Source: an uncultured Actinomycetes bacterium (GTDB lineage Bacteria > Actinomycetota > Acidimicrobiia > IMCC26256 > PALSA-610). Taken from it: DNA of 64,000 nucleotides. Positions 49,979 to 64,000 of the stretch are shown here, piece by piece; positions within the stretch are counted from its first letter, which is position 1; each line of letters starts with the position of its first letter. Both the position numbers and the translations under genes were made by a program. The notes under the pieces were generated by a model. The model was not told the origin of the DNA. It made no database searches and was given only the letters and a program-made list of their open reading frames with translations. Location of the stretch: NCBI GenBank assembly GCA_963761175.1, contig CAVXFZ010000003.1, positions 132,261 through 196,260 on the forward strand, given 5' to 3'.

Positions 49979-49979
49979 C

Positions 49980-52067
49980 GTGACGCGCCGTCGCGGGCCT
50001 CTGACCCCGGCCGAGCTGGCCGAGGCGGCGGTGCTCGCCGACCTCGCCCTGGTGCTCGTGGTGCTCGGGTGGCTGCTGCCGCTCGGCGGCGCCCTCTTCG
50101 CGGCCGCCTGCGTGCCGCTCGTGCTGCTCGCGGTGCGGCAGCGCATCCGGGTCGTGTTCGTGGGCTTCGTCGCCGCGTCGGCGCTCGGTTTCCTCGTCGG
50201 CGGCACCGCGGTCGTCACGAACCTCGCAATAACCGCCGCGATCAGCACGATGGTGGGTTTCGCGATGCGGCGCCGTTGGGGCCCGTCGCGCGCGGCCGGC
50301 GCCGCAGTGCTCGTGCTCTGGCCGCCGATCGCGGCCATCAGCGTCGGACTGCTCGCGTTGTTCGCCCGGCTCCGGAAGCTCGCACTCGACCAGGTACACA
50401 ACTCCTGGACCGCGCTGCGGCGGCTCGAAGTCCATCTCGGGCTGATCCGCGTGGCCCGCTTCGGTGACCGCGCGGTGCGGTACCTGACGACGCACTGGTG
50501 GTTGCTCGTCCCCGCGGTCGAGCTCGTCTTCGTGTTCGTCGGTTCGTTCGCCGCGTACGCGATCGCCCGCCGCGTGATCGGCCGCCTCGCGGACGCGGTG
50601 CCGCGCGTCCCGCTCGGTGACGGCCGGCCCGACGGCGCGGCGGGTCCGGTGCCCGTCGAGCTCGATGCAGTCGGGTTCCGCTACCCCGGTGCCACGGCCG
50701 ACGCGCTCGCACCGTTGACGGCGCGTATCGAGGCGCACCGGTTCGTCGCGGTGACCGGCCCGAACGGCGCGGGGAAGTCGACCCTCGCGCGGCTCCTCGC
50801 CGGCGCGGCGCCGACGCGTGGGGCATTGCACCGGCCGGGATCGGTCGCGCTCGGGCGCGCGGGCGGCACTGCGTTCGTGTTCCAGCGGCCCGAGAGCCAG
50901 GTGCTCGGGGTGCGGGTGCGCGACGACGTCGTTTGGGGGCTGCCACAGGGAACGGAGACCGACGTCGAGGGCGTGCTGCGGTCCGTCGGCCTCGCCGGGC
51001 TCGGCGACCGCGACACGGCGACGCTCTCCGGAGGTCAGCTCCAGCGGCTCGCGGTCGCGGCCGCGCTGGCCCGGCGGCCCGCGCTGCTCGTCTCCGACGA
51101 GTCGACCGCGATGCTCGACCCCGCGGGACGCGACCGGTTGCTGCGCCTCCTTCGCAGCCTGCCGGGCACCGAGGGGCCGACGGTCGTGCACGCGACGCAC
51201 CGCCGCGACGAGATCGTCGTGGCCGACGCGGTGATCGCGCTCACGCCGGCGGCGGCCGGCGCGACCGCGGCATCCGCCGCGGAGGAGCGGCGCGAGGCGT
51301 GGCAGCGCGCGGCCGCGCACGCGGAACCGAGATGGGCGGCCGCCGACGGCTCGGCGGAGTCGTTCGCGGCGACGCGCGCGCCCGTCGCCGAACTGCGCGG
51401 TGTCGGCTACGTGTACTCCGCGGGCACGCCGTGGGCCCACCGCGCGCTGCGCGGCATCGATCTCGAAGTCGGACCGCGTGACGCGATCCTCGTGGTGGGC
51501 GGGAACGGATCCGGCAAGACGACGCTCGCGTGGATCCTCGCGGGCTTGCTCACACCGACCGAGGGCGAGGCGCTCCTCGAAGGGGAGCCCGTCGTCGAGC
51601 AGGTCGGGCGGGTCGGGCTCGGGTTCCAGCACGCCCGACTCCAACTGCTGCGTCACACCGTGGGCCACGAGCTCGAGTCCGTCGCGCGCGGCTCGATCGG
51701 GGTGGGCGCGGCGCTCGAGCTCGTGGGCCTTCCGGCCGCGTTCGCCGGGCGTGCGATCGACGATCTGAGCGGTGGCCAGCAACGCCGGGTGGCGCTCGCC
51801 CGCCTCCTCGCCGGTGACGCGCCGGTGCTCGTGCTCGACGAGCCCATGGCCGGTCTCGACGACGACGCGCGTGCCGAGCTCGTCGCGGTGCTCGTACGGC
51901 TGCGGGCCGCGCGCGCGATCGGCTTGGTGATCGTCTCCCACGACCTCGTCGAGCTCGCGCCCGCCGTCGATCGGGTCGTTGCGCTGCGCGACGGCGAGAT
52001 CGTGCTCTCGCAGCCGGCCGACGCGCTCGGCGCCGTGAGCGCGTTCCTCGACGCGGAGGAGGCCTGA
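49980..52067 (+). CDS. ECF transporter: N-terminal membrane (S-component-like) domain fused to tandem ABC ATPases
   Basis: About 6 TMs, then two NBDs (GPNGAGKS/LSGGQ/DES; GGNGSGKT/LSGGQ/LDEP), YSAGTPW. Confidence 0.87.
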   Translation: MTRRRGPLTPAELAEAAVLADLALVLVVLGWLLPLGGALFAAACVPLVLLAVRQRIRVVFVGFVAASALGFLVGGTAVVTNLAITAAISTMVGFAMRRRWGPSRAAGAAVLVLWPPIAAISVGLLALFARLRKLALDQVHNSWTALRRLEVHLGLIRVARFGDRAVRYLTTHWWLLVPAVELVFVFVGSFAAYAIARRVIGRLADAVPRVPLGDGRPDGAAGPVPVELDAVGFRYPGATADALAPLTARIEAHRFVAVTGPNGAGKSTLARLLAGAAPTRGALHRPGSVALGRAGGTAFVFQRPESQVLGVRVRDDVVWGLPQGTETDVEGVLRSVGLAGLGDRDTATLSGGQLQRLAVAAALARRPALLVSDESTAMLDPAGRDRLLRLLRSLPGTEGPTVVHATHRRDEIVVADAVIALTPAAAGATAASAAEERREAWQRAAAHAEPRWAAADGSAESFAATRAPVAELRGVGYVYSAGTPWAHRALRGIDLEVGPRDAILVVGGNGSGKTTLAWILAGLLTPTEGEALLEGEPVVEQVGRVGLGFQHARLQLLRHTVGHELESVARGSIGVGAALELVGLPAAFAGRAIDDLSGGQQRRVALARLLAGDAPVLVLDEPMAGLDDDARAELVAVLVRLRAARAIGLVIVSHDLVELAPAVDRVVALRDGEIVLSQPADALGAVSAFLDAEEA

Positions 52068-52903
52068 TGGCGGCGCGGGCGTCGACGGGTGTCGAGCCGC
52101 CCGCGCCGCGCGCGTCCCGGCTTCGCTCGCGCGACGTCGAGTTGCGCTGGTTCCGGTACCTGGAGGGCGACACCCCGGTGCACCGGCTCTGGGCCGGCAC
52201 GAAGATCGTCGCGGTCGCGTGCGCGAGCCTCGCGCTCTCGTTGCGCCCGACGTGGCGCGCGCTCGGGCTCGTCGGTGCGATCGTGATCGTCGCCCTGCTC
52301 GCGGCGCGGATCCCGCGCACCGCTGTCCCGCGCATCCCGTCGTGGATCCTGAGCGTCGTCCTGCTCGGTGGCTTCTTCCAGGTGATCTGGGGCCCGCCCC
52401 CGCACCGCAAAGTGCTCGGTCTCGTCGTCAGCAGCAGCGCGCTCGACGAGTGGAGCCGGTTCCTCGTGCTGGGCGTCGCGCTCCTCGTGCTCGCGGCGGT
52501 CGTCGCGTGGACGACCCGCCTGGCCGAGCTCGCGCCCGCGATCTCGACGCTGCTGCGACCGCTCCGCGTCGTGCGGTTGCCGGTCGACGAGATCACCGTC
52601 GCGATCGCGCTCTGTGTGCGCTGCTTCCCGCTCCTGGGCGAGGAGCTGCGCGTCCTTCTTGCCGCGCGGCGGTTGCGGCCGGAGCTGCAGCGCGACGGCT
52701 TCCGGGCGCAGTTGCGCGAACCGGTCGATCTGCTCGTTGCCGCCACGAGTGTGTCCCTGCGCCGCAGCCGTGAGCTCGCCGACGCGATCGAGGCGCGTGG
52801 CGGGTTCGGGTCGATCGCCGACGCGGCGCGCCGCCCCGGGTTGCTCGACTTCGCGGTGCTCGTGGCGATCGCCGGCGTCGTCGCGTTGGTCTTCGTGCCC
52901 TGA
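52067..52903 (+). CDS. ECF transporter transmembrane component T
   Basis: VHRL...TK, TT, L.PL, R.FP.L..E, AIEARG motifs. Confidence 0.88.
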   Translation: MAARASTGVEPPAPRASRLRSRDVELRWFRYLEGDTPVHRLWAGTKIVAVACASLALSLRPTWRALGLVGAIVIVALLAARIPRTAVPRIPSWILSVVLLGGFFQVIWGPPPHRKVLGLVVSSSALDEWSRFLVLGVALLVLAAVVAWTTRLAELAPAISTLLRPLRVVRLPVDEITVAIALCVRCFPLLGEELRVLLAARRLRPELQRDGFRAQLREPVDLLVAATSVSLRRSRELADAIEARGGFGSIADAARRPGLLDFAVLVAIAGVVALVFVP

Positions 52904-52994: not shown

Positions 52995-54131
52995 ATGACC
53001 GGGGATCCGCCGCCGATTCCCGCGGCCCGGCTCGTCTTCCCGCCCGAGGACCGTGCCGAGATCGTCGCGCTCGTCGACGCGTCGCTGGCGTCCGGTTCGC
53101 TGACGCTCGGAGCCAACACCGCGGCGTTCGAGGCGGCGTTCGCGCAGCGTCACGGCGTTCCCCACGCGATCGCGGTGAGCTCGGGCACGAGCGCGATCGA
53201 GATCGTGCTGCGCCATCTCGGTGTCGACGGCGCGGAGGTGCTCGTTCCCGCGAACACCTTCTTCGCCACCGCGGCGGCGGTCGTGCACGCGGGCGGGACG
53301 GTACGGCTCGCCGACGTCGACGTGGCCACGCTCGCGCTCTCGGTCGAGACCGTCGAGGCGGCCCTCACCGAACGCACTGCGGGTGTCGTCATGGTGCACA
53401 TCGGCGGTTTCGTGAGCCCTGAGACGCCCGCCGTCCGGGACCTGTGCGCGGCGCGCGGACTCTTCTTCGTGGAGGACGCCGCCCACGCGCACGGGGTCTC
53501 CCTCGAAGGGACCGCGGCGGGATCGTTCGGCGTCGCGGGCGCCTTCTCGTTCTACCCGACGAAGGTGATGACGGCCGGTGAGGGCGGCATGATCGTGACC
53601 TCTGATCCCGACCTCGACGCCGACGCGCGCGTCTACCGCGATCAGGGCAAGGCGGGGTTCCTCGGCGGCGAGCACATCCGGCTCGGATCCGCCTGGCGCA
53701 TGAGCGAGCTGCACGCGGCGGTCGGAGGCGTCCAGCTCCGCCGGCTCGACGAGTTCATCGCGACGCGCCGCGCCGCGGCGGCGCGGTACGACGCGGGGCT
53801 CGCAGAGATTCCGGGTGTCGACGCCGTGTCGGTGCCCGCCGATTCGACGAACTACTACAAGTACGTCGCGCTGCTCACGCCGGGTGGCGATCGCGACGCG
53901 CTGAAGCGCGAGCTGCGCGACGAGTTCGGTGTCTCGATGAGTGGCGAGGTCTACTCGACGCCGCTGCACCGCCAGCCGGTCTTCGCCGGGCTCGCGCGTC
54001 ACGGTCTCGGTACCTCCGACGACGTCTGCGCCCGGCAGGTGTGCCTGCCCGTGCACTCCGACATGACTGCCGCAGAGGCCGACCGCGTGCTCGACGCGCT
54101 CCGCGCGGTGATGGCTCGGCGCATGCGCTGA
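52995..54131 (+). CDS. DegT/DnrJ/EryC1/StrS family PLP sugar aminotransferase
   Basis: VSSGTSA, VPANTFFAT, EDAAHAHG, FSFYPTK...GEGG, RMSE. Confidence 0.93.
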   Translation: MTGDPPPIPAARLVFPPEDRAEIVALVDASLASGSLTLGANTAAFEAAFAQRHGVPHAIAVSSGTSAIEIVLRHLGVDGAEVLVPANTFFATAAAVVHAGGTVRLADVDVATLALSVETVEAALTERTAGVVMVHIGGFVSPETPAVRDLCAARGLFFVEDAAHAHGVSLEGTAAGSFGVAGAFSFYPTKVMTAGEGGMIVTSDPDLDADARVYRDQGKAGFLGGEHIRLGSAWRMSELHAAVGGVQLRRLDEFIATRRAAAARYDAGLAEIPGVDAVSVPADSTNYYKYVALLTPGGDRDALKRELRDEFGVSMSGEVYSTPLHRQPVFAGLARHGLGTSDDVCARQVCLPVHSDMTAAEADRVLDALRAVMARRMR

Positions 54132-54150
54132 GCACGATCGACGCGCTCGG

Positions 54151-55437
54151 CTAGGTGGTGGCGCGGCTCAGCGCGTAGACGTCGAAACTGCGGTAGTGCG
54201 CGAGCCGGCGCACGGTGATACCGAGCGCGTCGCAGCCGTGCAGGTCGCCCGCGGAGAGGGCTTCGAGCAGGTGCTGCTCATTCTTGCGCAGCCGGATGTC
54301 GTAGTGGCGGGCGACGATCACGCGGTCGACGCGCCGGCTCGCGAGGAACGCGCAGTACGCGCGCGAGTCGGTCCACGTCTTGCGCACGATGCTCTCGGGA
54401 AAGAACTCGGAGTCGAGCCGCCCGCCGTATTCGAGTACCTGGTACATGCTCATGCGCTTGTCGTTCGTCGTGAGCACGCGGTACATCAGATGATGGCGGA
54501 ACTGCGACGACTCGAGGAACGGCACGATCGTCTGGTCCGGTGTGGTGCGTAGCCCCCGCCACGCCTGGCGCGTCTCCGACTGGTAGGCGCGGAACGCGAG
54601 ATTGCCCGCGAGGCACGCGACGAGGACGAGCGGGAGCATCCACGGGCGCGCGACCCTGCGGAAGAGCACGAGCGCGATCGGCAGCGCGAGCACCACGAGG
54701 CGCGGCCCGGCCGTGTCGCCGAGGTTCGCGAACCGCACCCCGATCGACGAGTCGGTGTACGCGGGCGTCTGGAACACGAGCCAGATCGCGGGGAGGGCGA
54801 TCAGAAGCGACGCTGCGTACGCGGCGAACAGGGCACGGCGGCGCCGTTCCCACGGCAACCACGCGAGAACGAGCAACGCCACCATGGGCACGAGCACCGG
54901 CGCGTGCGTCGCCTGTGCGACACCGGCGAGCAGCGCGCCCCACACGAGCCGGTCGCGCCGCCAGCACGCGATGGCCGCGAAGAGGAAGCCCATTGCCCAC
55001 ACGAAGGGCAGCTGGCCGAGGACCGTTCCGAGCACGACGAACGGATTCGAGAGCACGATCGCGAACCACCAGCCCCGCCGGAGCTCGGGAAAGGCCCAGA
55101 ACGTCGTGACCGCGAGACCGACCGTGCCGAGCACGAGCCAGAGGGTGACGACCCAGTCACCGAACAGCGGTCGCAGGAGTGCGGCCGACACCCATGGCAC
55201 GAACGCGTAGGGGAACGCGAGCCCTCGACCGTGCCCGATGACTCGCATGTGATACGGAATGCGGTGTGCATGCACGATCACGCGACTCACGAACCAGACG
55301 TGCGCGTAGTTGCTGATGGTGTCACTGGAGACGAAGATGCGGTGGCGCAGGATCCGGGCGAGCAGCACGATCCAGGCCAGCGCGACCAGCGCGGCGGCGA
55401 CCGTTCCCGACCGGCGGAACCATGTCGGCTCCGTCAC
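54151..55437 (-). CDS. Polytopic membrane protein, putative GT-C fold glycosyltransferase
   Basis: N-terminal TM, acidic loop SSDTISNYAH, about 9-10 TMs, soluble C-terminal domain; glycan-locus context. Confidence 0.6.
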   Translation of the reverse strand: MTEPTWFRRSGTVAAALVALAWIVLLARILRHRIFVSSDTISNYAHVWFVSRVIVHAHRIPYHMRVIGHGRGLAFPYAFVPWVSAALLRPLFGDWVVTLWLVLGTVGLAVTTFWAFPELRRGWWFAIVLSNPFVVLGTVLGQLPFVWAMGFLFAAIACWRRDRLVWGALLAGVAQATHAPVLVPMVALLVLAWLPWERRRRALFAAYAASLLIALPAIWLVFQTPAYTDSSIGVRFANLGDTAGPRLVVLALPIALVLFRRVARPWMLPLVLVACLAGNLAFRAYQSETRQAWRGLRTTPDQTIVPFLESSQFRHHLMYRVLTTNDKRMSMYQVLEYGGRLDSEFFPESIVRKTWTDSRAYCAFLASRRVDRVIVARHYDIRLRKNEQHLLEALSAGDLHGCDALGITVRRLAHYRSFDVYALSRATT

Positions 55438-55470
55438 GATGCAACCGGCGCCGCGGCGCGCTGACGCACG

Positions 55471-56469
55471 ATGAGCGGCGCGCCCGGCGCCTTCGCCGAC
55501 GCGCTCCTCGCGTTCGCGGCCGCCGTGTTCACCTGGTGGGCGACCGCGGGGAGGGGGCGCGTCGCGCTCGGCGCCGCGGTGATCTCCGGGGTGCTCGCGG
55601 TATGGCTGACCACCCAGACCGACGAGTCGCCGCTGCTCGCGATGTTGTCGATCGTGCTCGGCGCGGCCGTCGGCGTCGCGGCTGCCGGGGTGCGGACCGT
55701 TCCCGGTCGTTCGCGCGTCGAGGCAGGCGCGCACCGCCGGCGCGGCGCGAGCGTCGTGGTCGTCGTGACGGTTGTGGCCACCCTGCTCCTCGGCGGCTGG
55801 ATCGGCTCGAACTCGCCGACCGAATCGTGGTTCGGTGCGATCGTGAGCCACGGACCGCGTACCGCACCCGTCGTCGCGATCACCTTCGACGACGGGCCGA
55901 ACGTGAACGACACCATGAAGATCGCGCACCTGCTCGATTCGTACGGTGTGAAGGGCACGTTCTTCTCGGTCGGGAAGGCGCTGGCGAAGCGGCCCGACAT
56001 CTCACGGGCCCTCCTCGCCGACGGCCACCTGCTGGGGAACCACTCCTACCATCACGACCAGTGGCGTTGGCTCGATCCGCGGTACCCCGAGCTCGAACGC
56101 ACGCAGCAGGTCTTCCGGCACGACCTCGGCGTGTGCCCCGCCTTCTACCGCCCGCCGCACGGCGAGCACACACCGTTCATGGCGTACGCGTTGCACACGA
56201 AGCACATGACGATGGTCGGCTGGGACGTCTCCGCGGGCGACTGGGCGACGAAGGATCCGGAGTTGGTGGCGCGCCGCGTGCTGCGGCACGTGCGTGCCGG
56301 CTCGATCATCGACCTGCACGACGGGCTCGACGGCAATCTCACGGCTGATCGCAACGTGTTGCTGGGCGCCCTGCCCATCATCATGCGGGGCCTCGCGGCA
56401 CATGGCCTGCACGCGGTACGGCTCGACCAGCTGCTCGGAATCCGCGGCTACGACGCGTCGCACTGCTGA
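55471..56469 (+). CDS. Membrane-anchored polysaccharide deacetylase (NodB/CE4)
   Basis: N-terminal TMs; intact TFDDGP, GNHSYHH, RPPHG, WDV, IDLHD motifs. Confidence 0.9.
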   Translation: MSGAPGAFADALLAFAAAVFTWWATAGRGRVALGAAVISGVLAVWLTTQTDESPLLAMLSIVLGAAVGVAAAGVRTVPGRSRVEAGAHRRRGASVVVVVTVVATLLLGGWIGSNSPTESWFGAIVSHGPRTAPVVAITFDDGPNVNDTMKIAHLLDSYGVKGTFFSVGKALAKRPDISRALLADGHLLGNHSYHHDQWRWLDPRYPELERTQQVFRHDLGVCPAFYRPPHGEHTPFMAYALHTKHMTMVGWDVSAGDWATKDPELVARRVLRHVRAGSIIDLHDGLDGNLTADRNVLLGALPIIMRGLAAHGLHAVRLDQLLGIRGYDASHC

Positions 56470-56541
56470 TCCGCCGACTCGGGATCCCATCGGACGGCAG
56501 CGTACGGCCGCGCCGGCGGGTACGAACGCAATACTGGGGGA

Positions 56542-57897
56542 ATGACCTCGACCATGACGGACACGGCGATGCGTCGCGGCGGTTGGCTCGTCGCGACCCT
56601 GCTGCTCGCGACGATGAGTGCCGTCGTCCCGCTCACCGGCGCGACCGCGGCCGCGGCGGCGACCGCGGCGAGCCCCATCACGCCGGGGAACCGCCCCGCG
56701 CCGATCCCCGGTCAGCGCAACGGGCTCGTCGCCGCGAGCGAGCTCGTGACGGTGGAGGGAACGTGCCGCCTGTACAAGGAAGCGGCGGCGAGCTTCGCGC
56801 ACTTGCTCGCGGCGGCACGCGCCGACGGCATCGATCTCGCGACCGACGATTGCTACCGGCCCCTCGCGGACCAGATCTCGGTGCGCGCCGGCGCGTGCAC
56901 GAACGGGAACTGCGCGTGCGCGGCGACGATCAGCCCGACTGCGACCGTCGGCACATCGATGCACGGCTGGGGCAAGGCGGTCGATCTGACGGTCGACGGG
57001 CATTCGCTCACCGATCCGAACTCGGCCGCGGAGCGCTGGTTGAACGCGCACGCACGCACATGGGGATGGAACCATCCCGCGTTCGCGCTGCTCGGTACCG
57101 CCTGCCCGGAAGCGTGGCACTGGGAGTGGGTCGGGGATGGCGGAGCCCTGCACGCGTCGCGTGTCGTGGCCGACGTCATGGGCGGCGCGGGCGGGCCGCA
57201 CGGTGCGTTGGCCACGGTGACGGGACTCGGCGCGGTCACATGGCTCTCGGGTCCGCTCGCGGCGAGCGCGCCCTCGCAACCCGCGCTCTCACCGCTCGGG
57301 TGGGTCGTCGTGGGCGCCGCGACGACGCCGAGCGCGGCCGGGCTGTGGCGCGTCGCGGCCGATGGTGGCGTGTTCGCGTCGGGCGACGCGACGTTCTACG
57401 GCTCGACGGGTTCGCTGCGCCTCAACCGGCCGGTCGTCGGCATGGCCGCCGCTCCCGACGGTCGCGGTTACTGGCTGGTCGCGTCCGACGGAGGCGTGTT
57501 CCGGTTCGGCTCCGCACGCTTCTTCGGTTCGACCGGTTCCTTGCGGTTGAATCGACCGGTCGTGGGGATGGCACCGGCACCCGGTGGCGACGGCTACTGG
57601 CTCGTCGCGTCGGATGGCGGCATCTTCAGCTTCGGCGGCGCGCGCTTTGCCGGGTCGACGGGTGCGTTGCGTCTCGCCGCACCGGTCGTGGGGATGGCCG
57701 CGACGCCGTCCGGTCACGGCTACTGGCTCGTCGCGTCGGATGGCGGCGTCTTCAGCTTCGGGGACGCCACCTTCCACGGCTCCGCCGCCGGCAACGATCT
57801 TCGCGAGCCGGTCGTGGGGATCGTCGCGTCGGAGTCGGGTGGCGGCTACTCGCTCGTGACCGCCGACGGGACGGCGCTGCGCTTCGGCGACGCGTGA
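56542..57897 (+). CDS. Secreted M15B (VanY-like D,D-carboxypeptidase) peptidase with C-terminal GYWLVASDGG repeats
   Basis: Signal peptide, YR...Q, GTSMHGWGKAVD, EAWHWEW; 4-5 repeats of about 39 aa. Confidence 0.87.
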   Translation: MTSTMTDTAMRRGGWLVATLLLATMSAVVPLTGATAAAAATAASPITPGNRPAPIPGQRNGLVAASELVTVEGTCRLYKEAAASFAHLLAAARADGIDLATDDCYRPLADQISVRAGACTNGNCACAATISPTATVGTSMHGWGKAVDLTVDGHSLTDPNSAAERWLNAHARTWGWNHPAFALLGTACPEAWHWEWVGDGGALHASRVVADVMGGAGGPHGALATVTGLGAVTWLSGPLAASAPSQPALSPLGWVVVGAATTPSAAGLWRVAADGGVFASGDATFYGSTGSLRLNRPVVGMAAAPDGRGYWLVASDGGVFRFGSARFFGSTGSLRLNRPVVGMAPAPGGDGYWLVASDGGIFSFGGARFAGSTGALRLAAPVVGMAATPSGHGYWLVASDGGVFSFGDATFHGSAAGNDLREPVVGIVASESGGGYSLVTADGTALRFGDA

Positions 57898-57921
57898 AAG
57901 CGGCAACCTAACCTCGCGGCC

Positions 57922-59500
57922 GTGACCCCGTTCGCGCCGTTCGTCTCCCGTCACGCGCCCAACGGCATGGTGTGCGCGGTCGACCATCTCGCGGCGGGTG
58001 CCGGGGTCGCGATGTTGCGCGCCGGGGGGACCGCGGCCGACGCCGCCGTTGCCGCGAGCGCGGTGCTCGCGGTCACGACCCCGAACATGTGCGGGATGGG
58101 CGGCGATCTCTTCGCCCTCGTACACACCGGCGACGGACCTCCGCACACGCTCAACGCGTCGGGCCGATCGGGTTCGGGCGCCGATCCGGTACGCGCGCGC
58201 GACGAGGGACTCGTGCAGTTGCCGCTACGCGGCGACATCCGCGCGGTTCCCGTGCCCGGTTGTGTCGACGGCTGGCTCGCGTTGCACGCCCGCTTCGGAC
58301 GGTTGGACCTCGGCCGCGTGCTCGAACCCGCCATCGCGTACGCGCGCGACGGCTTTCCCGCCGCGCCGCTGCTCGTGGAGGCGTTCCCGCGGCTGGAAGG
58401 TGTCGCGCACCTCGACGACGCCTTCGATCCGTTCCCCGACGCGGTCGGCCGGCGAATCCGGCGGCCCGGAAACGCGCGCGCGCTGGAGGCGATCGTGCGC
58501 GAGGGGCGGGCCGGGTTCTACGAGGGCGAGTTCGGTGCCAACCTCGGGGTGCTCGGCGCGGGCGAGTACGCGCCGGACGACCTGCGCGCGCCGAACGCGG
58601 AGTGGGTCGTACCGCTCGGCGCGCGGGCGTGGGGTCACGACCTCTGGACGATGCCCCCGAACTCGCAGGGCTACCTCGCGCTCGCGGGCGCGTGGATCGC
58701 CGAAGGCCTCGACCTCCCGAGCGATCCCGACGCCGTGAACTTCGCACACCTGTTGATCGAGGCGGCGATCCAAGCCGGTCACGATCGACCGGCGGTGCTG
58801 CACGAGCACGCCGACGGCGACGCGCTCGTCGCGCCGGCCCGGCTCGCGCCGCGGCGCGGCGCGATCGACGTTGCGCGCGCCGCGCACCTCGCGGCACCGG
58901 GGGCGGCCGGTGGCACCATCGCGCTCGAAGCGATCGACCGCGACGGCACCGGCGTCTCGCTGATCCAGTCGAACGCGGCCGGCTTCGGCGCGCACCTCGT
59001 GGTGCCGGGCGTGGGGGTCTTCCTCCAGAATCGCGGTCTCGGGTTCTCGCTCGGTGCCGGGCACCCGGCCGAGTACGGCCCCCGCCGCCGCCCGCCGCAC
59101 ACGCTCGTTCCCCTCGTCGTCACCCGACCCGACGGTCGGTTGCGTGCGCTGCTCGGCACCATGGGCGCCGACAGCCAACCGCAGGTGCTCCTCCAACTCC
59201 TCGCCCGGGTGCTGCTGCTCGGGCAGTCGCCGGCCGAAGCGCTCGCCGCGCCGCGCTGGGTGCTCGCGAGCGGGGTCAGCACGTTCTCGACCTGGCACGA
59301 TCCCGACGCGATCGTCGTCCAGGTGGAGGCGCACGCCCCGGCCGCGTGGGTCCCGGAGTTCGCGCGCGAAGGGCCATCGGGTCGACGCGATCGATGCCTT
59401 CGCCTACCCGACCGGGCACGCGCACATCATCGAAGTGGGCGAGACCTACTCGGGAGCGTCGGATCCGCGCGCGCTCACGGGCGGCGCAGTCGGCTACTGA
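57922..59500 (+). CDS. Gamma-glutamyltransferase family protein (frameshift near 59367)
   Basis: GG.AADAA, CGMGGD, VPGCVDGW, GT cleavage site, QS..GFG, LQNRG, HTL.P, G.SDPR. Confidence 0.88.
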
Positions 59501-59536
59501 GCGCGGCGCCCGCTCGCGTCCGACACGCGTCGCGGA

Positions 59537-62419
59537 TCAGGTGCAGACCGTGTACGCCGCGGCGCCCAGCAGCTGGTCGAGGCGCACCGGCTGCAGGTGC
59601 CGAGCGCGCAGGCCCGCGATGATCTCGGGCACCGCGTGCAGCAGTGCCGCGCGTCCCGCCGCGCTGTCGTCGTCGAAGGCCGCGCGCAGATCGATGATCG
59701 ACCCGCCCTGCACCTGGCGGAGCACATGCTGCGCGTAGCCCGATGCGTCCGACGCGGGCGCGGTTCCGGCCGACACGTCCCAGAGCACCATCTTCATGCC
59801 GTGGTCGTGCGCGGCGGCGGCGATGAAGGGCGTCTTGCGGCCACGCGGAGGCCGGTACCAGGCCGGGCACACTCCGCCGAGGACGTTCGCGACGGTCTTC
59901 TGGGCTCGCGCCAGCTCCGGGTAGCGCGGGTCCATCCAGCGCCAGCCGTCACCGTGGTACGACTGGTTGCCGACGAGGAATCCCTGCTCGTACAGCGCGC
60001 GCACGAGTTGCGGGTTCTTGCGTGCGGCCTCGCCGACGACGAAGAACGCGGCCGGTACGTGCTGCGCGCCGAGAACCTGCATCAGGGCCTGGGTCGCGGC
60101 CAGATCGGGGCCGGCATCGAAGGTGAGGGCGACCTCGTTGCTCCCGCGTGGCCCGTGGACGACGCCGCCACCGAACCAGGTCGCGCTCACCGTGCTCGCA
60201 CCGAAGTACAGCGTCATCAATGCCGCGGTCGCGACGACGGTCGAGCCGACCGCGGCGCGGCGGATGCGCAGCGCGGGTGCGCGAGCGCGGCGGCGCAGCA
60301 AACCCAGGCTCGCTTCGGCGACGGCGACGGCGACCGCCACGAGCAGCAGCGCGGTGCGGTGGTCGTCGATCCGCAGGGCGACGACTGCGACGCCGCTCGC
60401 GCCGAGAACCCAAGGTTTCAACGCGCGCGATGGCGGTGACGCGAGCGCGAGGCCGGCGCTGAAGAGCACGGCGAGCAAGACGGTGCTCACGAGATCGGGT
60501 TGCTGGCCCGCCAACCACGCGGAGACGATCGCGACGGTTGCGCCCATCAACGGCAGACCCCCGCCGGGAACCAGCCGGCGCACGAGAAGCGCGGCCGCGA
60601 CTGCCGCGGCGGCACCGAGCGTTGCGGGCAGCGCGGCATCGACGCCGTGCCCGACCGTGACGGCGAGCAGCAGGGCGACGACGCCGGTGATCGGCAGCGT
60701 CGCCGGGGCCCGGCGCTGGGTGTCGGCCTTCCACACCCGCCACGCGGCGATCGGGATCATCGTCGCGTCGATCACCGCGTCGGTGATGCTCGTACGGGAA
60801 CGTGCGACCGGAACGGGAACCACGTGGTCGTTGCGCACGCGATAGCCGAGGCGGCCCATCACCACGGCGACCTCGACCGTTTCGCTGTACTTGTGTCCCG
60901 AGTAGTAGTCGAGCGCGTGCGCCAGCGCGCCGAGCCGGAAGACGCGGTAACCCGACTCGACGTCGTGAAGGCGGATGCCCGCCCACACGCTCGCCCACAT
61001 GCTGAGCACCCAGTTGCCGGCGCGCTTGAAGGGCCCGTGGTACGAGAGGTCACGGCAGGCGAGCATCGCGTCGAGTCCCTCGGCGACGGTCGAGTCCGCG
61101 AGCTCGTCGAGCACGGCGAGGTCGTGCTGACCGTCGGCATCGACGGTGAAGACGAGGTCGTCGGCGTCGAGCTCCCCGGCCTCGAGGCGCGCTTGCAGGT
61201 CGGAGAGGGCGAGCAGGTACGCCTCCGACATGCCCTGGTTGACGTCGTGGCACAGCAACCGGGCGTGCGGCTGGCCGGTCAGCCAGCGTTCGACCTCGGC
61301 GCGGGTCCCGTCGGTCGAGCCGTCGTCGACGACGACCAGCTCGTCGACGAGCGGAGCGAGCGCGTCGAGCACCCCGACGACCGTCGGTTCCTCGTTGTAC
61401 GCGGGCACGACGGCGATGCGCCGCCGCGCGCGCGTGCCGACCACAGCCGCTCGTTCCGGCGTCGACGAGGTGCTCGCCGCGGGCGCCGGTACCGCGGGCG
61501 TGGCGACCGGCGCGGCGCCCTGGGCGACGTACCAGCCGAGGGTGCGGGCGAGCCCGTCGGTGAAGGCTGTGCGCGCGTGCCAGCCGAGCTCGTCGCGCGC
61601 GCGGTCGCTGCGCACCTCGCGCGCGCGGTAGTCGCCGGGCCGCGCGGGACCGAAGCTGACTTCGACGTCGCCGACGAGCGCCTGCACGTGCAGCGCGATG
61701 TCGCGGATCGACGTCGTCTCCGTCGACTCGAGGTTGTACGTGCGGTTCTCGGCGACCGGCGCGAGGGCGAGCAGGTGCGCGGCGGCGAGGTCTTCCACGT
61801 ACACGAACCGGCGGCCCTGCGAGCCGTCGCCGTCGATGCGGATCGCTTCGCCGCGCAGGCCGCGTTCGAGGAACGCGGCGACGACGAGATCGCTGCGCAT
61901 GCGCGGTCCGTACGGGATGCCGTAGCGCAGCACCGTGTACGGGCGGCCGTAGAGGTTCGCGTAGTCGCGGCAGAACATCTCCGAGGCGAGCTTCTCCGAC
62001 ACGTAGAGGTGCTTGTCGAGCTGCAGGTCGAAGGGCGTGTCCTCGTCGACGACGTCGCCATGCGTCGCGGCGTACACCCAGACCGTGCTCGCGAGGATCA
62101 CCCGGCCGGTGTCGGCCCGGCGCGCGGCTTGGAGAACCGTCGCCGTCCCGAGGGTGTTGAGCGCGACGCTCTCGGCCGGTCGCGAGAGGACGTCGTTGAC
62201 GTCGGCCATCGCCGCGAGGTGGAACACGAAGTCGGACCCCGCGAGCGCGTTCGTGAGCGCGTTCTCATCGAGGAGGTCGACGCCGCGCCACTCCGCCTCC
62301 GGCTGCATCGGGGCAATTCGGTCGATCACGCGCACGCGGTGGCCGGCGCCGAGGAGCGCGTCGACGACATGAGAGCCGATGAACCCGGAGCCGCCCGTTA
62401 CGGAGATCAACTGACTCAC
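59537..62419 (-). CDS. Multidomain fusion: NAD-dependent epimerase/dehydratase + GT2 (polyprenyl-phosphate type) + TM bundle + degenerate polysaccharide deacetylase
   Basis: TGGSGFIG and YVSEK (extended SDR); VVPAYNEE, VDDGSTD, DADGQH (GT2); about 6 TMs; TFDAGP/GNQSYH/RPPRG; single uninterrupted frame. Confidence 0.85.
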   Translation of the reverse strand: MSQLISVTGGSGFIGSHVVDALLGAGHRVRVIDRIAPMQPEAEWRGVDLLDENALTNALAGSDFVFHLAAMADVNDVLSRPAESVALNTLGTATVLQAARRADTGRVILASTVWVYAATHGDVVDEDTPFDLQLDKHLYVSEKLASEMFCRDYANLYGRPYTVLRYGIPYGPRMRSDLVVAAFLERGLRGEAIRIDGDGSQGRRFVYVEDLAAAHLLALAPVAENRTYNLESTETTSIRDIALHVQALVGDVEVSFGPARPGDYRAREVRSDRARDELGWHARTAFTDGLARTLGWYVAQGAAPVATPAVPAPAASTSSTPERAAVVGTRARRRIAVVPAYNEEPTVVGVLDALAPLVDELVVVDDGSTDGTRAEVERWLTGQPHARLLCHDVNQGMSEAYLLALSDLQARLEAGELDADDLVFTVDADGQHDLAVLDELADSTVAEGLDAMLACRDLSYHGPFKRAGNWVLSMWASVWAGIRLHDVESGYRVFRLGALAHALDYYSGHKYSETVEVAVVMGRLGYRVRNDHVVPVPVARSRTSITDAVIDATMIPIAAWRVWKADTQRRAPATLPITGVVALLLAVTVGHGVDAALPATLGAAAAVAAALLVRRLVPGGGLPLMGATVAIVSAWLAGQQPDLVSTVLLAVLFSAGLALASPPSRALKPWVLGASGVAVVALRIDDHRTALLLVAVAVAVAEASLGLLRRRARAPALRIRRAAVGSTVVATAALMTLYFGASTVSATWFGGGVVHGPRGSNEVALTFDAGPDLAATQALMQVLGAQHVPAAFFVVGEAARKNPQLVRALYEQGFLVGNQSYHGDGWRWMDPRYPELARAQKTVANVLGGVCPAWYRPPRGRKTPFIAAAAHDHGMKMVLWDVSAGTAPASDASGYAQHVLRQVQGGSIIDLRAAFDDDSAAGRAALLHAVPEIIAGLRARHLQPVRLDQLLGAAAYTVCT

Positions 62420-62450: not shown

Positions 62451-63566
62451 TCAGGCTTCGGCGAAGTCGTGCTTGCGGATGAGGCAGTGGACACCCTTGA
62501 CATCGTCGACGACCTGCGAGATCTCGAAATCGGCCGCCGCGCTCAGGTAGGCGTAGGCGGTCGCCCGATCCATCTCGAAACGCCCGGTGAGGAAGTCGAG
62601 CGCCGCGCGTACCGCGTTGCGCATCGCCTCGTTCAGGTCGCGATCGAGCCCCATCGGGATCCAGTGCGTGTCCGTCTCGCCGAACGGCTCGCGCAGGAGT
62701 CCGGCGGCTCGGCGCGCTTCGGCGCCGCGCAGCACGGTGAAGCGGTAGGTGGCGCGCAGCGGCGCCTCCAGCGCGGTGAGGCACACCTCGCCGTCGCCCT
62801 GCGCGTAGTGCGGATCGCCGACGGCGAAGAGCGCGCCCGGCACGGCGACCGGCAGGTAGAGGCTGGAGCCGGCGCCGAGCTCGTTGACGTCGAGGTTGCC
62901 GCCGTGCCGGCCCGGCGGGCGGGAGTGCACCGGTGCGTCGGTCGCGGGTGCGACCGTCGTGATGCCCATGAACGGTTGGATCGGGAAGCGCGCCGCGCGC
63001 CCGGAACCGAACGGGAGGACGCCCACGGGGCGCGCGCCGGTGTCGTCGACGGCGACGAAGTGGCAGACGGTGTGGAAGCGCTCCGGATGCAGCGCGTCCG
63101 CACCCGCTTCGATCGGCGGCGTGGCGGGCAGCTCGTCGGGAAGCGCGCCGCAGCCGTGCCGGTTCGACAGGCAGCCGTACGGGGCGCGGGGGACGAGCGA
63201 CAAGACGTCGACGCGCAGCACGTCACCCGGTTCGGCGCCGTCGATCGCGACGGGGCCGGTGACGACGTGCGGGCCGTCGACGAACATCGTGTGCTCCAGT
63301 GCCGACGCCGCGATGTCGCGGGCGTCGTGCAGCACCGAACCGGCGTCGATGCCGTAGCGAGCGAAGAACGCGATCGGATCACGGCCCTGGTCGTCGAGGA
63401 TGCCTTCGTGCGAGACCGTGTCGATCGTGACGGTGGCGCCGGGTGCGACCCGCAGCACGGGCGTGCTCGTGCGGTTCGGCAGCCACCCCCACTGGACCGT
63501 CTCCGGGGTCGACGTGACGTAGTGCTCCCCGTCGATCGCACCCGCGCCCGCCTGTAGCAGTTCCAC
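62451..63566 (-). CDS. Acetamidase/formamidase family protein
   Basis: TV.WG, GPH.VTGP...GAEPGD, GGNLD, GDPH.AQGDGEV..TALE; GGAGG RBS. Confidence 0.9.
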   Translation of the reverse strand: MELLQAGAGAIDGEHYVTSTPETVQWGWLPNRTSTPVLRVAPGATVTIDTVSHEGILDDQGRDPIAFFARYGIDAGSVLHDARDIAASALEHTMFVDGPHVVTGPVAIDGAEPGDVLRVDVLSLVPRAPYGCLSNRHGCGALPDELPATPPIEAGADALHPERFHTVCHFVAVDDTGARPVGVLPFGSGRAARFPIQPFMGITTVAPATDAPVHSRPPGRHGGNLDVNELGAGSSLYLPVAVPGALFAVGDPHYAQGDGEVCLTALEAPLRATYRFTVLRGAEARRAAGLLREPFGETDTHWIPMGLDRDLNEAMRNAVRAALDFLTGRFEMDRATAYAYLSAAADFEISQVVDDVKGVHCLIRKHDFAEA

Positions 63567-63606
63567 CGAGCCTCCGTTCGTGGGCGGATTACGCTTTCCG
63601 CCTCCG

Positions 63607-64000
63607 ATGAACGAGTCTTCCAGGGACGGCCTCGGGCCGACCCCCGCCGAGCTGGGACGCGAGCTGAAAGACCTCGCGCTCGCAGGCGCCGGTTGGGGCG
63701 CGCTCCTGCGGCGCATCGCCGAGGCGACGGGCGCCGCGGTGCGGCTCGTCGGCGTGCACGGCGGCGTGCTGGCGGCTTCCGACGCCGGTCCTGCGAGCGG
63801 CCTCGATCCGGCCGAGGTGAGCACGCTCTTCGCGCGCGACCGCGCCAACCCGGCCGTCTGCACCGACGGCTGGGAGGGCCGCGCCCGGCCGGTGACCGCC
63901 GGTCCGCGCCGCGTCGGTGTGCTCCTCGTCGAGTCGCCGGTCGACGCCGCCACGGCCCGGCTGCAGGATGCCGCGACCGACGCGATCGCGATCGAAGCCG
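63607..64000 (+). CDS. Partial, probable PucR-family regulator N-terminus
   Basis: ATG 63607 opens a frame with L..LALAGAG..ALL..IA...G..V.L, GAF-like; divergent from the acetamidase; truncated by the window edge. Confidence 0.55.
   Translation, partial: MNESSRDGLGPTPAELGRELKDLALAGAGWGALLRRIAEATGAAVRLVGVHGGVLAASDAGPASGLDPAEVSTLFARDRANPAVCTDGWEGRARPVTAGPRRVGVLLVESPVDAATARLQDAATDAIAIEA

What the first reader, a model, noticed from the sequence alone, without database searches (positions are those of the whole stretch)
52995..62419. Arn-like lipid-carrier amino-sugar modification locus in a monoderm actinobacterium
Seen: within 9.4 kb lie a DegT aminotransferase (52995), a GT-C-like polytopic membrane protein (54151), an intact NodB deacetylase with a membrane anchor (55471) and an SDR-GT2-TM-deacetylase fusion (59537). 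Established: the proteobacterial L-Ara4N pathway uses the same family set: ArnA (SDR that makes a 4-keto sugar), ArnB (DegT), ArnC (GT2 onto undecaprenyl-P), ArnD (NodB-family deformylase) and ArnT (GT-C). Inference: this locus makes a polyprenyl-P-amino sugar and transfers it to an unknown envelope acceptor (glycolipid, wall polymer or protein) in an organism expected to lack lipid A. This could add positive charge for acid or cationic-peptide tolerance. No formyl-/acetyltransferase or flippase gene is evident in the window.
Basis: partly seen in the sequence, partly recalled or inferred. Interest (0 to 1): 0.82.

Follow-up and report, generated by a model that had tools for sequence, protein, structure and literature searches.

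The report
Lipid-carrier amino-sugar envelope modification module
This is a conserved, uncharacterised gene set of uncultured Acidimicrobiia and Chloroflexota that most likely builds an amino sugar on a membrane lipid carrier, trims it outside the cell and attaches it to an unknown envelope component, much as Gram-negative bacteria modify lipid A.

Summary
The same five functions are DegT aminotransferase, extended SDR, polyprenyl-phosphate-type GT2, multi-TM NodB deacetylase and a polytopic membrane protein. They lie together in 29 of 37 fully flanked loci from Actinomycetota and Chloroflexota MAGs, often as one colinear operon. Natural fusions link them: SDR-GT2-7TM-NodB, GT2-7TM-NodB, GT2-GT-C and GT2-GT-C-NodB.

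The 54151-55437 protein folds with confidence (pLDDT 90) as a GT-C glycosyltransferase. Its best matches are AglB, Pmt, ArnT and AftA at Z 14-15. It belongs to a small family that no Pfam model recognises. LpxC was found in 0 of 41 related genomes, so lipid A is not the acceptor.

The Arn analogy holds in logic but not in detail:
- The SDR lacks the ArnA/UXS and RmlB catalytic acids and looks most like 4-epimerases.
- No formyltransferase is linked.
- The NodB domains are predicted to sit outside the membrane.
- The fused NodB of this window has lost four of six catalytic residues, while the solo paralog is intact.

The sugar and the acceptor remain unknown. Verdict: a real system, a new variant of a known kind.

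The parts
52995..54131 (+). DegT/DnrJ/EryC1-family PLP sugar aminotransferase (378 aa)
   Evidence: Pfam E 2e-100. The best NCBIfam model is PseC, 212 bits against a cut-off of 423; ArnB scores 159.5 against 631. The best solved relative is perosamine synthetase 3bn1 at 170 bits; ArnB is ninth. The motif SFYPTK..GEGG holding the PLP lysine can be read. Orthologs of 54-73% identity lie in all 12 GT-C-positive genomes.
54151..55437 (-). GT-C-fold membrane glycosyltransferase of a family no Pfam model recognises (428 aa); about 300 aa of TM helices plus a C-terminal alpha/beta domain (299-424)
   Evidence: AF2 pLDDT 90.3, pTM 0.88. The 25 best Foldseek matches are all GT-C enzymes, with E from 3e-3 upward. 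VIA-align gives AglB Z 15.1, Pmt1/2 14.4, ArnT 14.3, AftA 13.8, and the C-terminal domain against the AglB globular domain Z 9.7. D39 in the first loop is invariant in 22 of 22 sequences. No Pfam family is assigned: 1 of 22 members gives a weak GT87 hit.
55471..56469 (+). Membrane-anchored CE4/NodB deacetylase, catalytically intact solo paralog (332 aa)
   Evidence: Pfam Polysacc_deac_1, E 8.7e-24. All six canonical residues are present: D140, D141, H191, H195, R227, H283. There are three N-terminal hydrophobic segments, with a basic loop before the last. It is transcribed divergently from the GT-C gene. In 66 of the 67 related loci that hold a NodB gene, one lies within 1 kb of the GT-C gene.
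59537..62419 (-). Four-part fusion protein SDR-GT2-7TM-NodB (960 aa; longest ORF to 62503)
   Evidence: Pfam domains. The same 960-aa product is in the protein collection as P0121. Full fusions also occur in G002, G020 and G016. In other relatives the parts are separate genes in the same order.
61520..62407 (-). Extended-SDR domain (fusion residues 33-328)
   Evidence: The T/Y/K triad is present. STVWVY is conserved, with no dehydratase or decarboxylase acid. Best PDB match is 4zrm UDP-glucose 4-epimerase, 138 bits.
60719..61411 (-). GT2 domain of the polyprenyl-phosphate glycosyltransferase class (residues 365-595)
   Evidence: Foldseek matches are ArnC 9bhc at E 1e-10, then GtrB and DPMS. 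DADGQH is invariant in 29 of 29 sequences; compare DADLQN, DADLQD and DADLQH of ArnC, GtrB and DPMS. The best NCBIfam model is PpgS, 46 bits against a cut-off of 370.
60179..60697 (-). Seven-helix transmembrane domain (residues about 603-775); candidate anchor or flippase
   Evidence: AF2 helices at model residues 248-420, with pLDDT only about 50-75. Family-wide K+R counts are 11.8 in the predicted inner loops and 4.2 in the outer loops. No family hit was found.
59564..60151 (-). Degenerate NodB domain (residues 785-980), predicted to be extracytoplasmic
   Evidence: The six catalytic positions read D A Q G R R, against D D H H R H in the solo copy. Foldseek lists the CE4 pseudoenzyme BA3943 among the matches.
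56542..57897 (+). VanY-type D,D-peptidase with C-terminal repeats; a lineage-specific neighbour, not part of the conserved core
   Evidence: Pfam VanY, E 1.7e-12. It lies beside the module only in G000, G002, G020 and, in part, G018.

Best explanation
This is a five-function extracytoplasmic glycosylation module of monoderm bacteria.

Shown:
- DegT, an extended SDR, a polyprenyl-phosphate-class GT2, a 7-TM/NodB protein and a GT-C-fold transferase form one conserved, repeatedly fused gene set.
- No lipid A pathway was found in the searched relatives.

Inferred mechanism:
1. In the cytoplasm the SDR oxidises C4 of a UDP-HexNAc-type sugar, and DegT transaminates the keto sugar to a nucleotide amino sugar.
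2. The GT2 loads that sugar onto polyprenyl phosphate at the inner face of the membrane.
3. The lipid-linked sugar crosses the membrane, possibly through the 7-TM domain that joins GT2 to NodB.
4. Outside, an active NodB removes an N-acetyl group from the lipid-linked sugar and exposes a free amine.
5. The GT-C enzyme transfers the now cationic sugar to an envelope acceptor. The acceptor could be a wall glycopolymer, peptidoglycan, a lipoglycan or a protein, but not lipid A.

In this genome the ancestral operon has been rearranged into four transcription units. SDR, GT2, 7TM and NodB are fused. The fused NodB has lost its metal ligands and its catalytic acid, and a duplicated solo NodB beside the GT-C gene carries the activity.
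For: Gene linkage:
- In 37 loci with at least 7 kb on both sides of the GT-C gene, 29 hold DegT, SDR, GT2 and NodB together.
- DegT and SDR are adjacent on one strand in 47 of the 52 loci that hold both. A NodB gene lies within 1 kb of the GT-C gene in 66 of 67 loci.
- The colinear operon DegT-SDR-GT2~7TM~NodB-GT-C is seen in G003, G010, G015, G016 and G021.
- Fusions: 104 of the 120 listed homologs are GT2-TM-NodB and 16 of 120 are SDR-GT2-TM-NodB. Of 10 long GT-C homologs scanned, 8 are GT2-GT-C and 1 is GT2-GT-C-NodB. Their GT2 is 40-54% identical to the window's and carries DADGQH, or DADEQH in one.

Components:
- GT-C fold. Invariant loop-1 Asp.
- GT2 resembles ArnC, GtrB and DPMS.
- NodB outside: positive-inside counts of 11.8 against 4.2. 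In P0308 the NodB follows the GT-C C-terminal domain.
- An intact NodB sextet is present in 64 of 82 copies. Degenerate copies are mostly second copies.
- A DegT-SDR pair stands without GT2 or GT-C nearby in G039, which fits a soluble nucleotide-sugar step.
- LpxC was found in 0 of 41 genomes; the control search rings in 4 of 14 named genomes.
- No acyl- or formyltransferase is conserved nearby. G000 has a single PF00551 match, elsewhere in the genome. The acetyl group that NodB removes therefore most simply comes from a HexNAc precursor.
Against: - The SDR has no dehydratase or decarboxylase acid/base and matches 4-epimerases best. Release of a 4-keto sugar is not shown and would be unusual chemistry for this class.
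- DegT specificity is unresolved. Its best hits are perosamine synthase and PseC, which use 6-deoxy substrates.
- No flippase was identified. The 7-TM model has low confidence: pLDDT about 50-75 in that region, pTM 0.44 for the whole model.
- Five of the 37 fully flanked GT-C loci hold none of the partner genes. L030, L032 and L042 come from MAGs that also hold a partnered locus.
- A subgroup of single-copy fused NodBs also lacks the acid His, so deacetylation may not be obligatory.
- Foldseek E-values for the GT-C model are only 3e-3 or weaker. Helical bundles can reach Z of about 13 by chance (note).
- All homologs in the listings are from MAGs or metagenomes. There are no biochemical data.
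- G000 is 78% complete.
Confidence: 0.6

Rival explanations
1. HexNAc-to-HexN pathway of the mycobacterial GalN or Bordetella GlcN type. The SDR is simply a UDP-HexNAc 4-epimerase. GT2 makes polyprenyl-P-HexNAc, NodB deacetylates it and GT-C transfers HexN. DegT serves another step or another product.
For: The SDR's best solved relatives are 4-epimerases (4zrm at 138 bits, 6wjb at 120 bits), and it lacks dehydratase and decarboxylase residues. The GT2's best NCBIfam model is PpgS. No N-acyltransferase is linked. In the Mtb/C. glutamicum pathway, the flipping and deacetylation factors are still unidentified (PMC9671496, passages read).
Against: DegT is as tightly conserved as the other genes. 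It lies next to the SDR in 47 of 52 loci and in 30 of 37 full loci. A DegT-SDR pair also occurs without the rest in G039. The PpgS score is 46 bits against a cut-off of 370.
Confidence: 0.15
2. The NodB enzymes do not act on the lipid-linked donor. They act on the acceptor polymer, for example peptidoglycan GlcNAc as PgdA does, or on the sugar after transfer. The GT-C then transfers an N-acetylated or otherwise unmodified amino sugar.
For: The NodB domains are closest to peptidoglycan GlcNAc deacetylases (NCBIfam; Bc1960). They are predicted to lie outside the membrane. A VanY peptidase lies beside them in this lineage. Some fused NodBs lack the acid His.
Against: NodB is physically fused to the GT2 synthase through the TM domain in 120 of the 120 listed homologs. 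It is fused to GT2-GT-C in P0308. This tethers it to the lipid-intermediate machinery rather than to the wall.
Confidence: 0.2
3. A true Arn pathway making undecaprenyl-P-L-Ara4N, as the family set suggested to the first reader.
For: The same five superfamilies are present: SDR, DegT, GT2, NodB and GT-C. ArnC and ArnT are among the structural matches.
Against: There is no ArnA-type Ser-Glu. NF008872 scores 30 bits against a cut-off of 294. The ArnB model scores 159.5 against 631. No linked formyltransferase exists and G000 has one PF00551 hit in all, yet ArnC accepts only the formylated sugar. NodB is predicted outside, whereas ArnD acts before flipping. LpxC was found in 0 of 41 genomes.
Confidence: 0.04
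4. Unrelated envelope genes that happen to lie near one another in this window.
For: In the window they sit on alternating strands, with VanY and GGT between them.
Against: The genes are conserved together and repeatedly fused across two phyla.
Confidence: 0.01

Closest known systems
Arn (PmrHFIJKLM) L-Ara4N lipid A modification pathway of Proteobacteria
   Same: The same superfamily set and logic. A nucleotide amino sugar is made by an SDR and a DegT enzyme, loaded on polyprenyl phosphate by a Pren-P GT2, de-N-acylated by a NodB-fold enzyme and transferred outside by a GT-C.
   Different: The SDR has no oxidative-decarboxylase signature. There is no formyltransferase and no ArnE/F. NodB is predicted outside rather than before the flip. 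The GT-C belongs to a family separate by sequence. No lipid A pathway was found. The fusion architecture differs: SDR-GT2-7TM-NodB here, against formyltransferase-SDR in ArnA.
Mycobacterial/corynebacterial arabinogalactan GalN modification (Rv3634c epimerase, PpgS with Rv3632, Rv3779 GT-C)
   Same: An actinobacterial system with an epimerase-like SDR, a polyprenyl-P-HexNAc synthase, deacetylation at or after the flip and a GT-C transferase giving a free-amine sugar. PpgS is the best NCBIfam hit of the GT2.
   Different: The similarity to PpgS is weak: 46 bits against a cut-off of 370. A DegT aminotransferase is an integral member here. Here a NodB and a 7-TM domain are candidates for the deacetylation and flipping steps, whose factors are unidentified in Mtb and C. 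glutamicum. No comparison with Rv3779 could be run.
Multi-component transmembrane glycosylation systems of Gram-positive bacteria (GT-A Pren-P synthase, GtrA flippase, GT-C transferase). CsbB/YfhO and GacI/GacL are examples recalled from memory.
   Same: A GT2 makes a lipid-linked monosaccharide that a GT-C uses outside the membrane to decorate a wall polymer. The general description is in PMC13390465 (passages read).
   Different: No GtrA-type gene lies in the module. Dedicated sugar-amination genes (DegT, SDR) and a NodB deacetylase are added. GT2-GT-C and GT2-7TM-NodB fusions occur.
Bordetella LgmABC (GlcN on lipid A) and Francisella FlmF2/NaxD/FlmK (GalN on lipid A)
   Same: A triad of Pren-P GT2, deacetylase and GT-C that yields a cationic hexosamine. 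lgmA-C are required for the GlcN modification (PMC4993483, passages read). The family assignments of these proteins are recalled from memory and come from no call.
   Different: Those systems have lipid A as acceptor and no DegT/SDR pair. Deacetylation there is thought to be cytoplasmic (recalled).

Membership tests
Arn L-Ara4N pathway | ArnA C-terminal-type UDP-GlcA oxidative decarboxylase (catalytic Thr-Ser-Glu and Arg; the residue pattern is recalled) | tested here: not met
   The motif is S-T-V-W-V-Y in 14 of 14 sequences. NF008872 scores 30.4 bits against a cut-off of 294. ArnA is not among the 60 listed PDB matches.
Arn L-Ara4N pathway | N-formyltransferase (ArnA N-terminal domain) supplying the formylated donor that ArnC requires | tested here: not met
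   No such gene is in the window locus or in the related loci examined. G000 has one PF00551 match, on another contig; the genome is 78% complete.
Arn L-Ara4N pathway | ArnB-equivalog aminotransferase | tested here: not met
   NF008658 scores 159.5 bits against a cut-off of 631. ArnB is ninth among the PDB matches. Membership of the DegT superfamily is met.
Arn L-Ara4N pathway | Lipid A as acceptor | tested here: not met
   LpxC (PF03331) was found in 0 of 41 genomes; the positive control rings in 4 of 14.
Arn L-Ara4N pathway | ArnE/F small-multidrug-type flippase | not tested
   No small membrane ORF is conserved in the module. No genome-wide family search was run.
Polyprenyl-phosphate glycosyltransferases (GT2; ArnC/GtrB/DPMS class) | GT-A fold with a DAD-x-Q DXD motif and juxtamembrane helices | tested here: met
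   Foldseek gives ArnC at E 1e-10, then GtrB and DPMS. DADGQH is invariant in 29 of 29 sequences. Motifs of the known enzymes come from PMC12690121. An amphipathic helix at model residues 218-239 precedes the TM region.
GT-C glycosyltransferase superfamily | Polytopic fold shared with STT3/AglB, ArnT, PMT and Aft | tested here: met
   The model has pLDDT 90.3. All 25 best Foldseek rows are GT-C enzymes. VIA-align Z is 15.1, 14.4, 14.3 and 13.8 over 262-373 aligned residues, against Z 4.8 at rank 50.
GT-C glycosyltransferase superfamily | Conserved acidic residue in the first extracytoplasmic loop | tested here: met
   D39 is invariant in 22 of 22 sequences, within S-x-D-[ST]-x-x-N-x-x-H-V-W. 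Its catalytic role is inferred.
ArnT (GT83) / GT87 / other named GT-C sequence families | Match to the family profile above its curated threshold | tested here: not met
   The only hit is GT87 at 17.7 bits, below the cut-off of 25, in 1 of 22 members. No PDB sequence matches up to E 10. The profile search finds only 334 representatives in 1.84 billion.
CE4 / NodB metal-dependent deacetylases | Asp-His-His metal triad plus catalytic base Asp, Arg and acid His (motif definitions recalled) | tested here: met
   The solo NodB (55471-56469) has D140, D141, H191, H195, R227 and H283, all present.
CE4 / NodB metal-dependent deacetylases | The same catalytic residues in the fused C-terminal domain | tested here: not met
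   The fused domain reads D A Q G R R, so four of six residues are replaced. The fold is retained.
Mycobacterial GalN pathway | PpgS equivalog | tested here: not met
   NF058614 scores 46.4 bits against a cut-off of 370.
Mycobacterial GalN pathway | Rv3779-type GT-C | not tested

The most novel reading that the evidence does not exclude
Monoderm Acidimicrobiia and Chloroflexota have a convergent counterpart of the Gram-negative Arn system. It installs a doubly aminated sugar, such as a 2,4-diamino-2,4-dideoxyhexose, on a wall polymer. A plain C4-oxidising, epimerase-like SDR with DegT makes the 4-amine. A single polypeptide couples lipid loading, translocation through a new 7-TM flippase domain and extracytoplasmic de-N-acetylation. 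A previously unrecognised GT-C family completes the transfer. In Chloroflexota the locus is switched by an embedded OmpR/HisKA two-component system, as PmrAB switches arn.
Probability: 0.15. Interest if true: 0.8.

Novelty: new variant of a known kind. Interest (0 to 1): 0.6.

Why it matters
Acidimicrobiia and Chloroflexota are abundant and mostly uncultured. Almost nothing is known about their envelope chemistry.

This module predicts a specific, testable decoration: a free-amine sugar delivered on a polyprenyl carrier. It also defines a GT-C family that no Pfam model recognises. It offers candidates, a NodB and a 7-TM domain, for the flip and deacetylation steps that are still unassigned in the mycobacterial GalN pathway.

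If the SDR proves to be a non-decarboxylating, non-dehydrating C4 oxidase that feeds an aminotransferase, that would add a new route to 4-amino sugars. Surface charge modification bears on tolerance of cationic peptides, metals and acid, and on phage adsorption.

Tried and rejected
- Sequence search of the GT-C protein against PDB chains found 0 matches up to E 10.
- Pfam on 22 family members gave only one weak GT87 hit.
- A search for longer, fused forms of the GT-C by the word-index tool found one 792-aa protein without domains. The profile search later found the fusions.
- The ESM Atlas search of the 7-TM stretch gave no usable hit.
- Flanking genes of the compact operons were scanned for an acyltransferase or a flippase. 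They were CorA (3 loci), PLD, acyl-CoA dehydrogenase, thiolase-like, DUF6629 and one GNAT about 650 bp upstream in L017 only. None is conserved.
- The FmdA-like amidase beside the fusion (62451-63953) was considered as a deformylase partner and rejected. It gave no match in any of the 94 related loci.
- Literature searches for a prior description found nothing relevant among the rows listed. These were: ArnT/ArnC/ArnD/Actinobacteria (75 papers, 15 listed); polyprenyl phosphate/GT-C/deacetylase/aminotransferase (1 paper); Ara4N/Actinomycetota/Chloroflexota/Acidimicrobiia/monoderm (12 of 1,202 listed); and PDB codes 8VR2, 8VR3 and 8VR5 (1 paper found and listed, unrelated).
- The Skovierova 2010 paper is not held.
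- Earlier notes of this scan returned nothing.
- No binding prediction was run, because no binding claim is made.
- Supplementary files of papers were not consulted.

Full report
**What is in the window.**

The region has about 72% G+C, so many spurious ORFs occur. GC3 filtering and family scans give this gene order:

| Coordinates | Strand | Gene |
|---|---|---|
| 49929-52903 | + | ECF-type transporter |
| 52995-54131 | + | DegT |
| 54151-55437 | - | polytopic membrane protein |
| 55471-56469 | + | membrane-anchored NodB deacetylase |
| 56542-57897 | + | VanY-type peptidase |
| 57922-59622 | + | gamma-glutamyltranspeptidase |
| 59537-62419 | - | SDR-GT2-TM-NodB fusion (longest ORF to 62503) |
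| 62451-63953 | - | FmdA-like amidase |

I add two points. The four genes lie in four transcription units. The NodB domain of the fusion is degenerate: TFDAG, QSYHG, RPPRG and LRAA stand where the solo paralog has TFDDG, HSYHH, RPPHG and LHDG. The putative metal Asp, both His and the acid His are therefore gone.

**Is the linkage real?**

I searched G000 and 40 relatives of the same order.
- The membrane protein was found in 12 of 41 genomes, plus one marginal hit. All clear hits are in the window's own family.
- A DegT ortholog of 54-73% identity is present in each of those 12.
- The SDR, GT2 and NodB parts of the fusion lie on the same contigs.
- Mapping 14 fetched neighbourhoods shows a compact colinear operon DegT-SDR-GT2~TM~NodB-membrane protein in G003, G010, G015, G016 and G021.
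- G009 and G012 have a split form, with GT2 alone and TM-NodB on the other strand. G011 lacks a local NodB.
- The rearranged two-NodB form with VanY occurs only in G000, G002 and G020.

A scan of one genome per GTDB species with the family alignment found 166 confirmed stretches, of which 80 were kept.
- All 80 titles are MAGs. By my count from the listing, 64 name Actinomycetota lineages (mostly Acidimicrobiia), 13 name Chloroflexota lineages, 2 say only 'bacterium', and 1 is a 3.6-kb contig labelled Burkholderiales.
- Of the 37 loci with at least 7 kb on both sides, 29 hold DegT, SDR, GT2 and NodB. Three hold some of them and 5 hold none.
- Three of those 5 (L030, L032, L042) come from MAGs that also have a partnered locus.
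- Of the 43 truncated loci, 18 still hold all four.
- DegT and SDR are adjacent on one strand in 47 of 52 loci. A NodB gene lies within 1 kb of the membrane-protein gene in 66 of 67. SDR and GT2 are adjacent in 31 of 48.

The module thus has two tight pairs, DegT-SDR and NodB-membrane protein, bridged by GT2.

**Fusions.**

- Of the 120 best homologs of the GT2-TM-NodB part, 104 are GT2-TM-NodB proteins of about 640-690 aa. Sixteen, counting the window's own, carry the SDR as well.
- A profile search of 1.84 billion representatives with the membrane-protein family found only 334 hits at E ≤ 1e-3.
- Ten of the longer hits were scanned. Eight are GT2 fused to the membrane protein. One is GT2-membrane protein-NodB (P0308). 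One holds NodB and part of the membrane protein.
- Their GT2 is 40-54% identical to the window's and has the same DADGQH motif, or DADEQH in one.

These independent fusions link the three membrane steps functionally.

**The membrane protein is a GT-C.**

- A 22-sequence alignment gave an AlphaFold2 model with pLDDT 90.3 and pTM 0.88.
- The 25 best Foldseek rows are all GT-C enzymes: STT3, AglB, ArnT, ALG12, DPY19, AftD, ALG9 and PIG-M. Probabilities are 0.91-1.0, but E-values are only 3e-3 or weaker and TM-scores about 0.3-0.55.

VIA-align against 48,161 chains gave:

| Match | Z | Aligned residues |
|---|---|---|
| AglB | 15.1 | 373 |
| Pmt1/2 | 14.4 | 262 |
| ArnT | 14.3 | 370 |
| STT3 | 13.9 | 394 |
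| AftA | 13.8 | 374 |
| PglB | 11.9 | 367 |
| PimE | 11.1 | 235 |
| rank 50 | 4.8 | 95 |

- The C-terminal domain (299-424) matches the AglB and PglB globular domains at Z 9.7 and 7.7.
- The tool's caveat applies: helical bundles can reach Z of about 13 by chance. The uniform GT-C identity of the top rows and the invariant Asp39 in the first loop make the assignment sound.
- By sequence the family stands alone. No PDB chain matches. Only 1 of 22 members gives a weak GT87 hit. All 120 listed homologs lack a Pfam domain; the named ones are called 'hypothetical protein'.

**The GT2.**

Sequence gives only weak hints. PpgS scores 46 bits against a cut-off of 370, followed by archaeal dolichyl-phosphate hexose transferases. 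The model of GT2-TM-NodB has pLDDT 74.7 overall and 80-90 in the GT2 part. It matches ArnC (E 1e-10), GtrB, DPMS and PcManGT. The invariant DADGQH fits the DXD signature DADLQN, DADLQD and DADLQH of ArnC, GtrB and DPMS (PMC12690121, passages read). It therefore belongs to the polyprenyl-phosphate glycosyltransferase class.

**Topology.**

The model shows an amphipathic helix followed by seven hydrophobic helices between GT2 and NodB. Over 29 family members, the loops predicted to face inward carry 11.8 Lys+Arg on average and the outward loops 4.2. This places the NodB domain outside. The solo NodB has the same basic loop before its last helix. In P0308 the NodB follows the GT-C C-terminal domain, which is external by homology. 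In the Arn pathway, by contrast, ArnD deformylates before the ArnE/F flip. No family or atlas hit explains the 7-TM domain. Its role as anchor or flippase is an inference.

**NodB activity.**

- Of 82 NodB copies read in the related loci, 64 keep all six canonical residues. Two contigs were fetched twice, so the copies on them count double.
- The strongly degenerate copies are second copies in loci that also hold an intact one.
- A subgroup of single-copy fused proteins has Arg for the acid His and RPPNG for RPPHG.
- In this window the fused copy is the degenerate one and the solo copy is intact. This fits duplication followed by loss of catalysis in the tethered copy.
- Foldseek also lists BA3943, a known CE4 pseudoenzyme, among the matches.

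**The sugar is not resolved.**

- The SDR has the Thr/Tyr/Lys triad. The two residues after the Thr are Val-Trp in all 14 orthologs and paralogs that cover the site.
- From knowledge of these families (recalled), RmlB-type dehydratases have Asp-Glu at that position and UXS/ArnA have Ser-Glu.
- The best models are dTDP-glucose dehydratase (119 bits against a cut-off of 365) and GalE (114 against 262). The UDP-4-keto-pentose synthase model gives 30 against 294.
- The best solved relatives are 4-epimerases: 4zrm, 6wjb (which I recall as PelX) and 2p5u. MoeE5 and UXS follow.
- DegT is closest to perosamine synthase, PseC and DesI. ArnB ranks lower.
- No acyl- or formyltransferase travels with the module. 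G000 has a single PF00551 match elsewhere, and the genome is 78% complete.
- The simplest reading is that the acetyl group removed by NodB comes from a UDP-HexNAc precursor and that DegT adds a second amine after C4 oxidation. This is inference.
- The DegT-SDR pair that stands alone in G039 supports a nucleotide-level step over a lipid-level one.

**The acceptor.**

LpxC was found in 0 of 41 genomes; the control search rings in 4 of 14 named genomes. Lipid A is therefore excluded as far as these searches reach. Nothing identifies the real acceptor. The VanY neighbour is lineage-specific.

**Regulation.**

In Chloroflexota loci, the NodB/GT-C pair and a DegT-SDR-GT2-GT-C2 block are separated by an OmpR-type response regulator and a HisKA kinase. 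GT-C2 is a second paralog of 28-33% identity. The regulator and kinase are Pfam-confirmed in L048 and L059. ORFs of matching place, size and N-terminal sequence occur in L045, L055, L062, L065 and L066, but I did not scan these. This suggests inducible control. The window has no such pair next to the locus.

**Comparison and novelty.**

The module works like Arn. It is also close to the mycobacterial GalN pathway, whose flipping and deacetylating factors remain unidentified (PMC9671496, passages read). It also fits the general Gram-positive scheme of GT-A synthase, flippase and GT-C transferase (PMC13390465, passages read). It fails the membership tests for Arn proper. My literature searches found no description of it, though each listed only part of what it found. 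I rate it a new variant of a known kind, with a new GT-C sequence family and unusual fusion architectures.

Noticed in passing
L045, L048, L055, L059, L062, L065, L066 (Chloroflexota loci): An OmpR-type response regulator and a HisKA histidine kinase (with a HAMP domain in L048) lie inside the module. They sit between the NodB/GT-C pair and a DegT-SDR-GT2 block that ends in a second GT-C paralog of 28-33% identity. Both are Pfam-confirmed in L048 and L059 only.
   Followed up: partly
window 57922-59622 (+) against 59537-62419 (-): The gamma-glutamyltranspeptidase ORF overlaps the 3' end of the fusion gene by 86 bp. Its last ~90 residues are Arg-rich and match nothing; Pfam covers only profile positions 2-468 of 512. 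This may be a frameshift or a truncated gene.
   Followed up: no
window 56542-57897 (+): The VanY-type D,D-peptidase carries about five C-terminal repeats of the type GYWLVASDGGVFxFG. It accompanies the module in G000, G002 and G020 and, in part, in G018.
   Followed up: partly
window 62451-63953 (-): An acetamidase/formamidase-family (FmdA_AmdA) gene lies directly upstream of the fusion gene. The first ~120 residues of the ORF look non-coding. It gave no match in any of the 94 related loci, so it is not part of the module.
   Followed up: yes
L017, L020, L021 (G003, G021, G016): A CorA Mg2+ channel gene directly follows the GT-C gene in three compact operons.
   Followed up: no
window 49929-52903 (+): An ECF-type transporter has a 712-aa protein that joins a DUF2232 membrane part to two ABC ATPase domains, followed by a CbiQ T-component. 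CbiQ-DegT adjacency is kept in G002 and G020.
   Followed up: no
window 55437/55471: Only 33 bp separate the divergent start codons called for the GT-C and solo NodB genes. The homologs G002 and G020 align only from NodB residue ~25, so the NodB start may lie further downstream.
   Followed up: no
L013/L027 (G002): This relative holds both the fused SDR (76% identical) and a second SDR paralog (48%) directly after DegT. A DUF6629 membrane protein lies downstream of the GT-C gene.
   Followed up: partly
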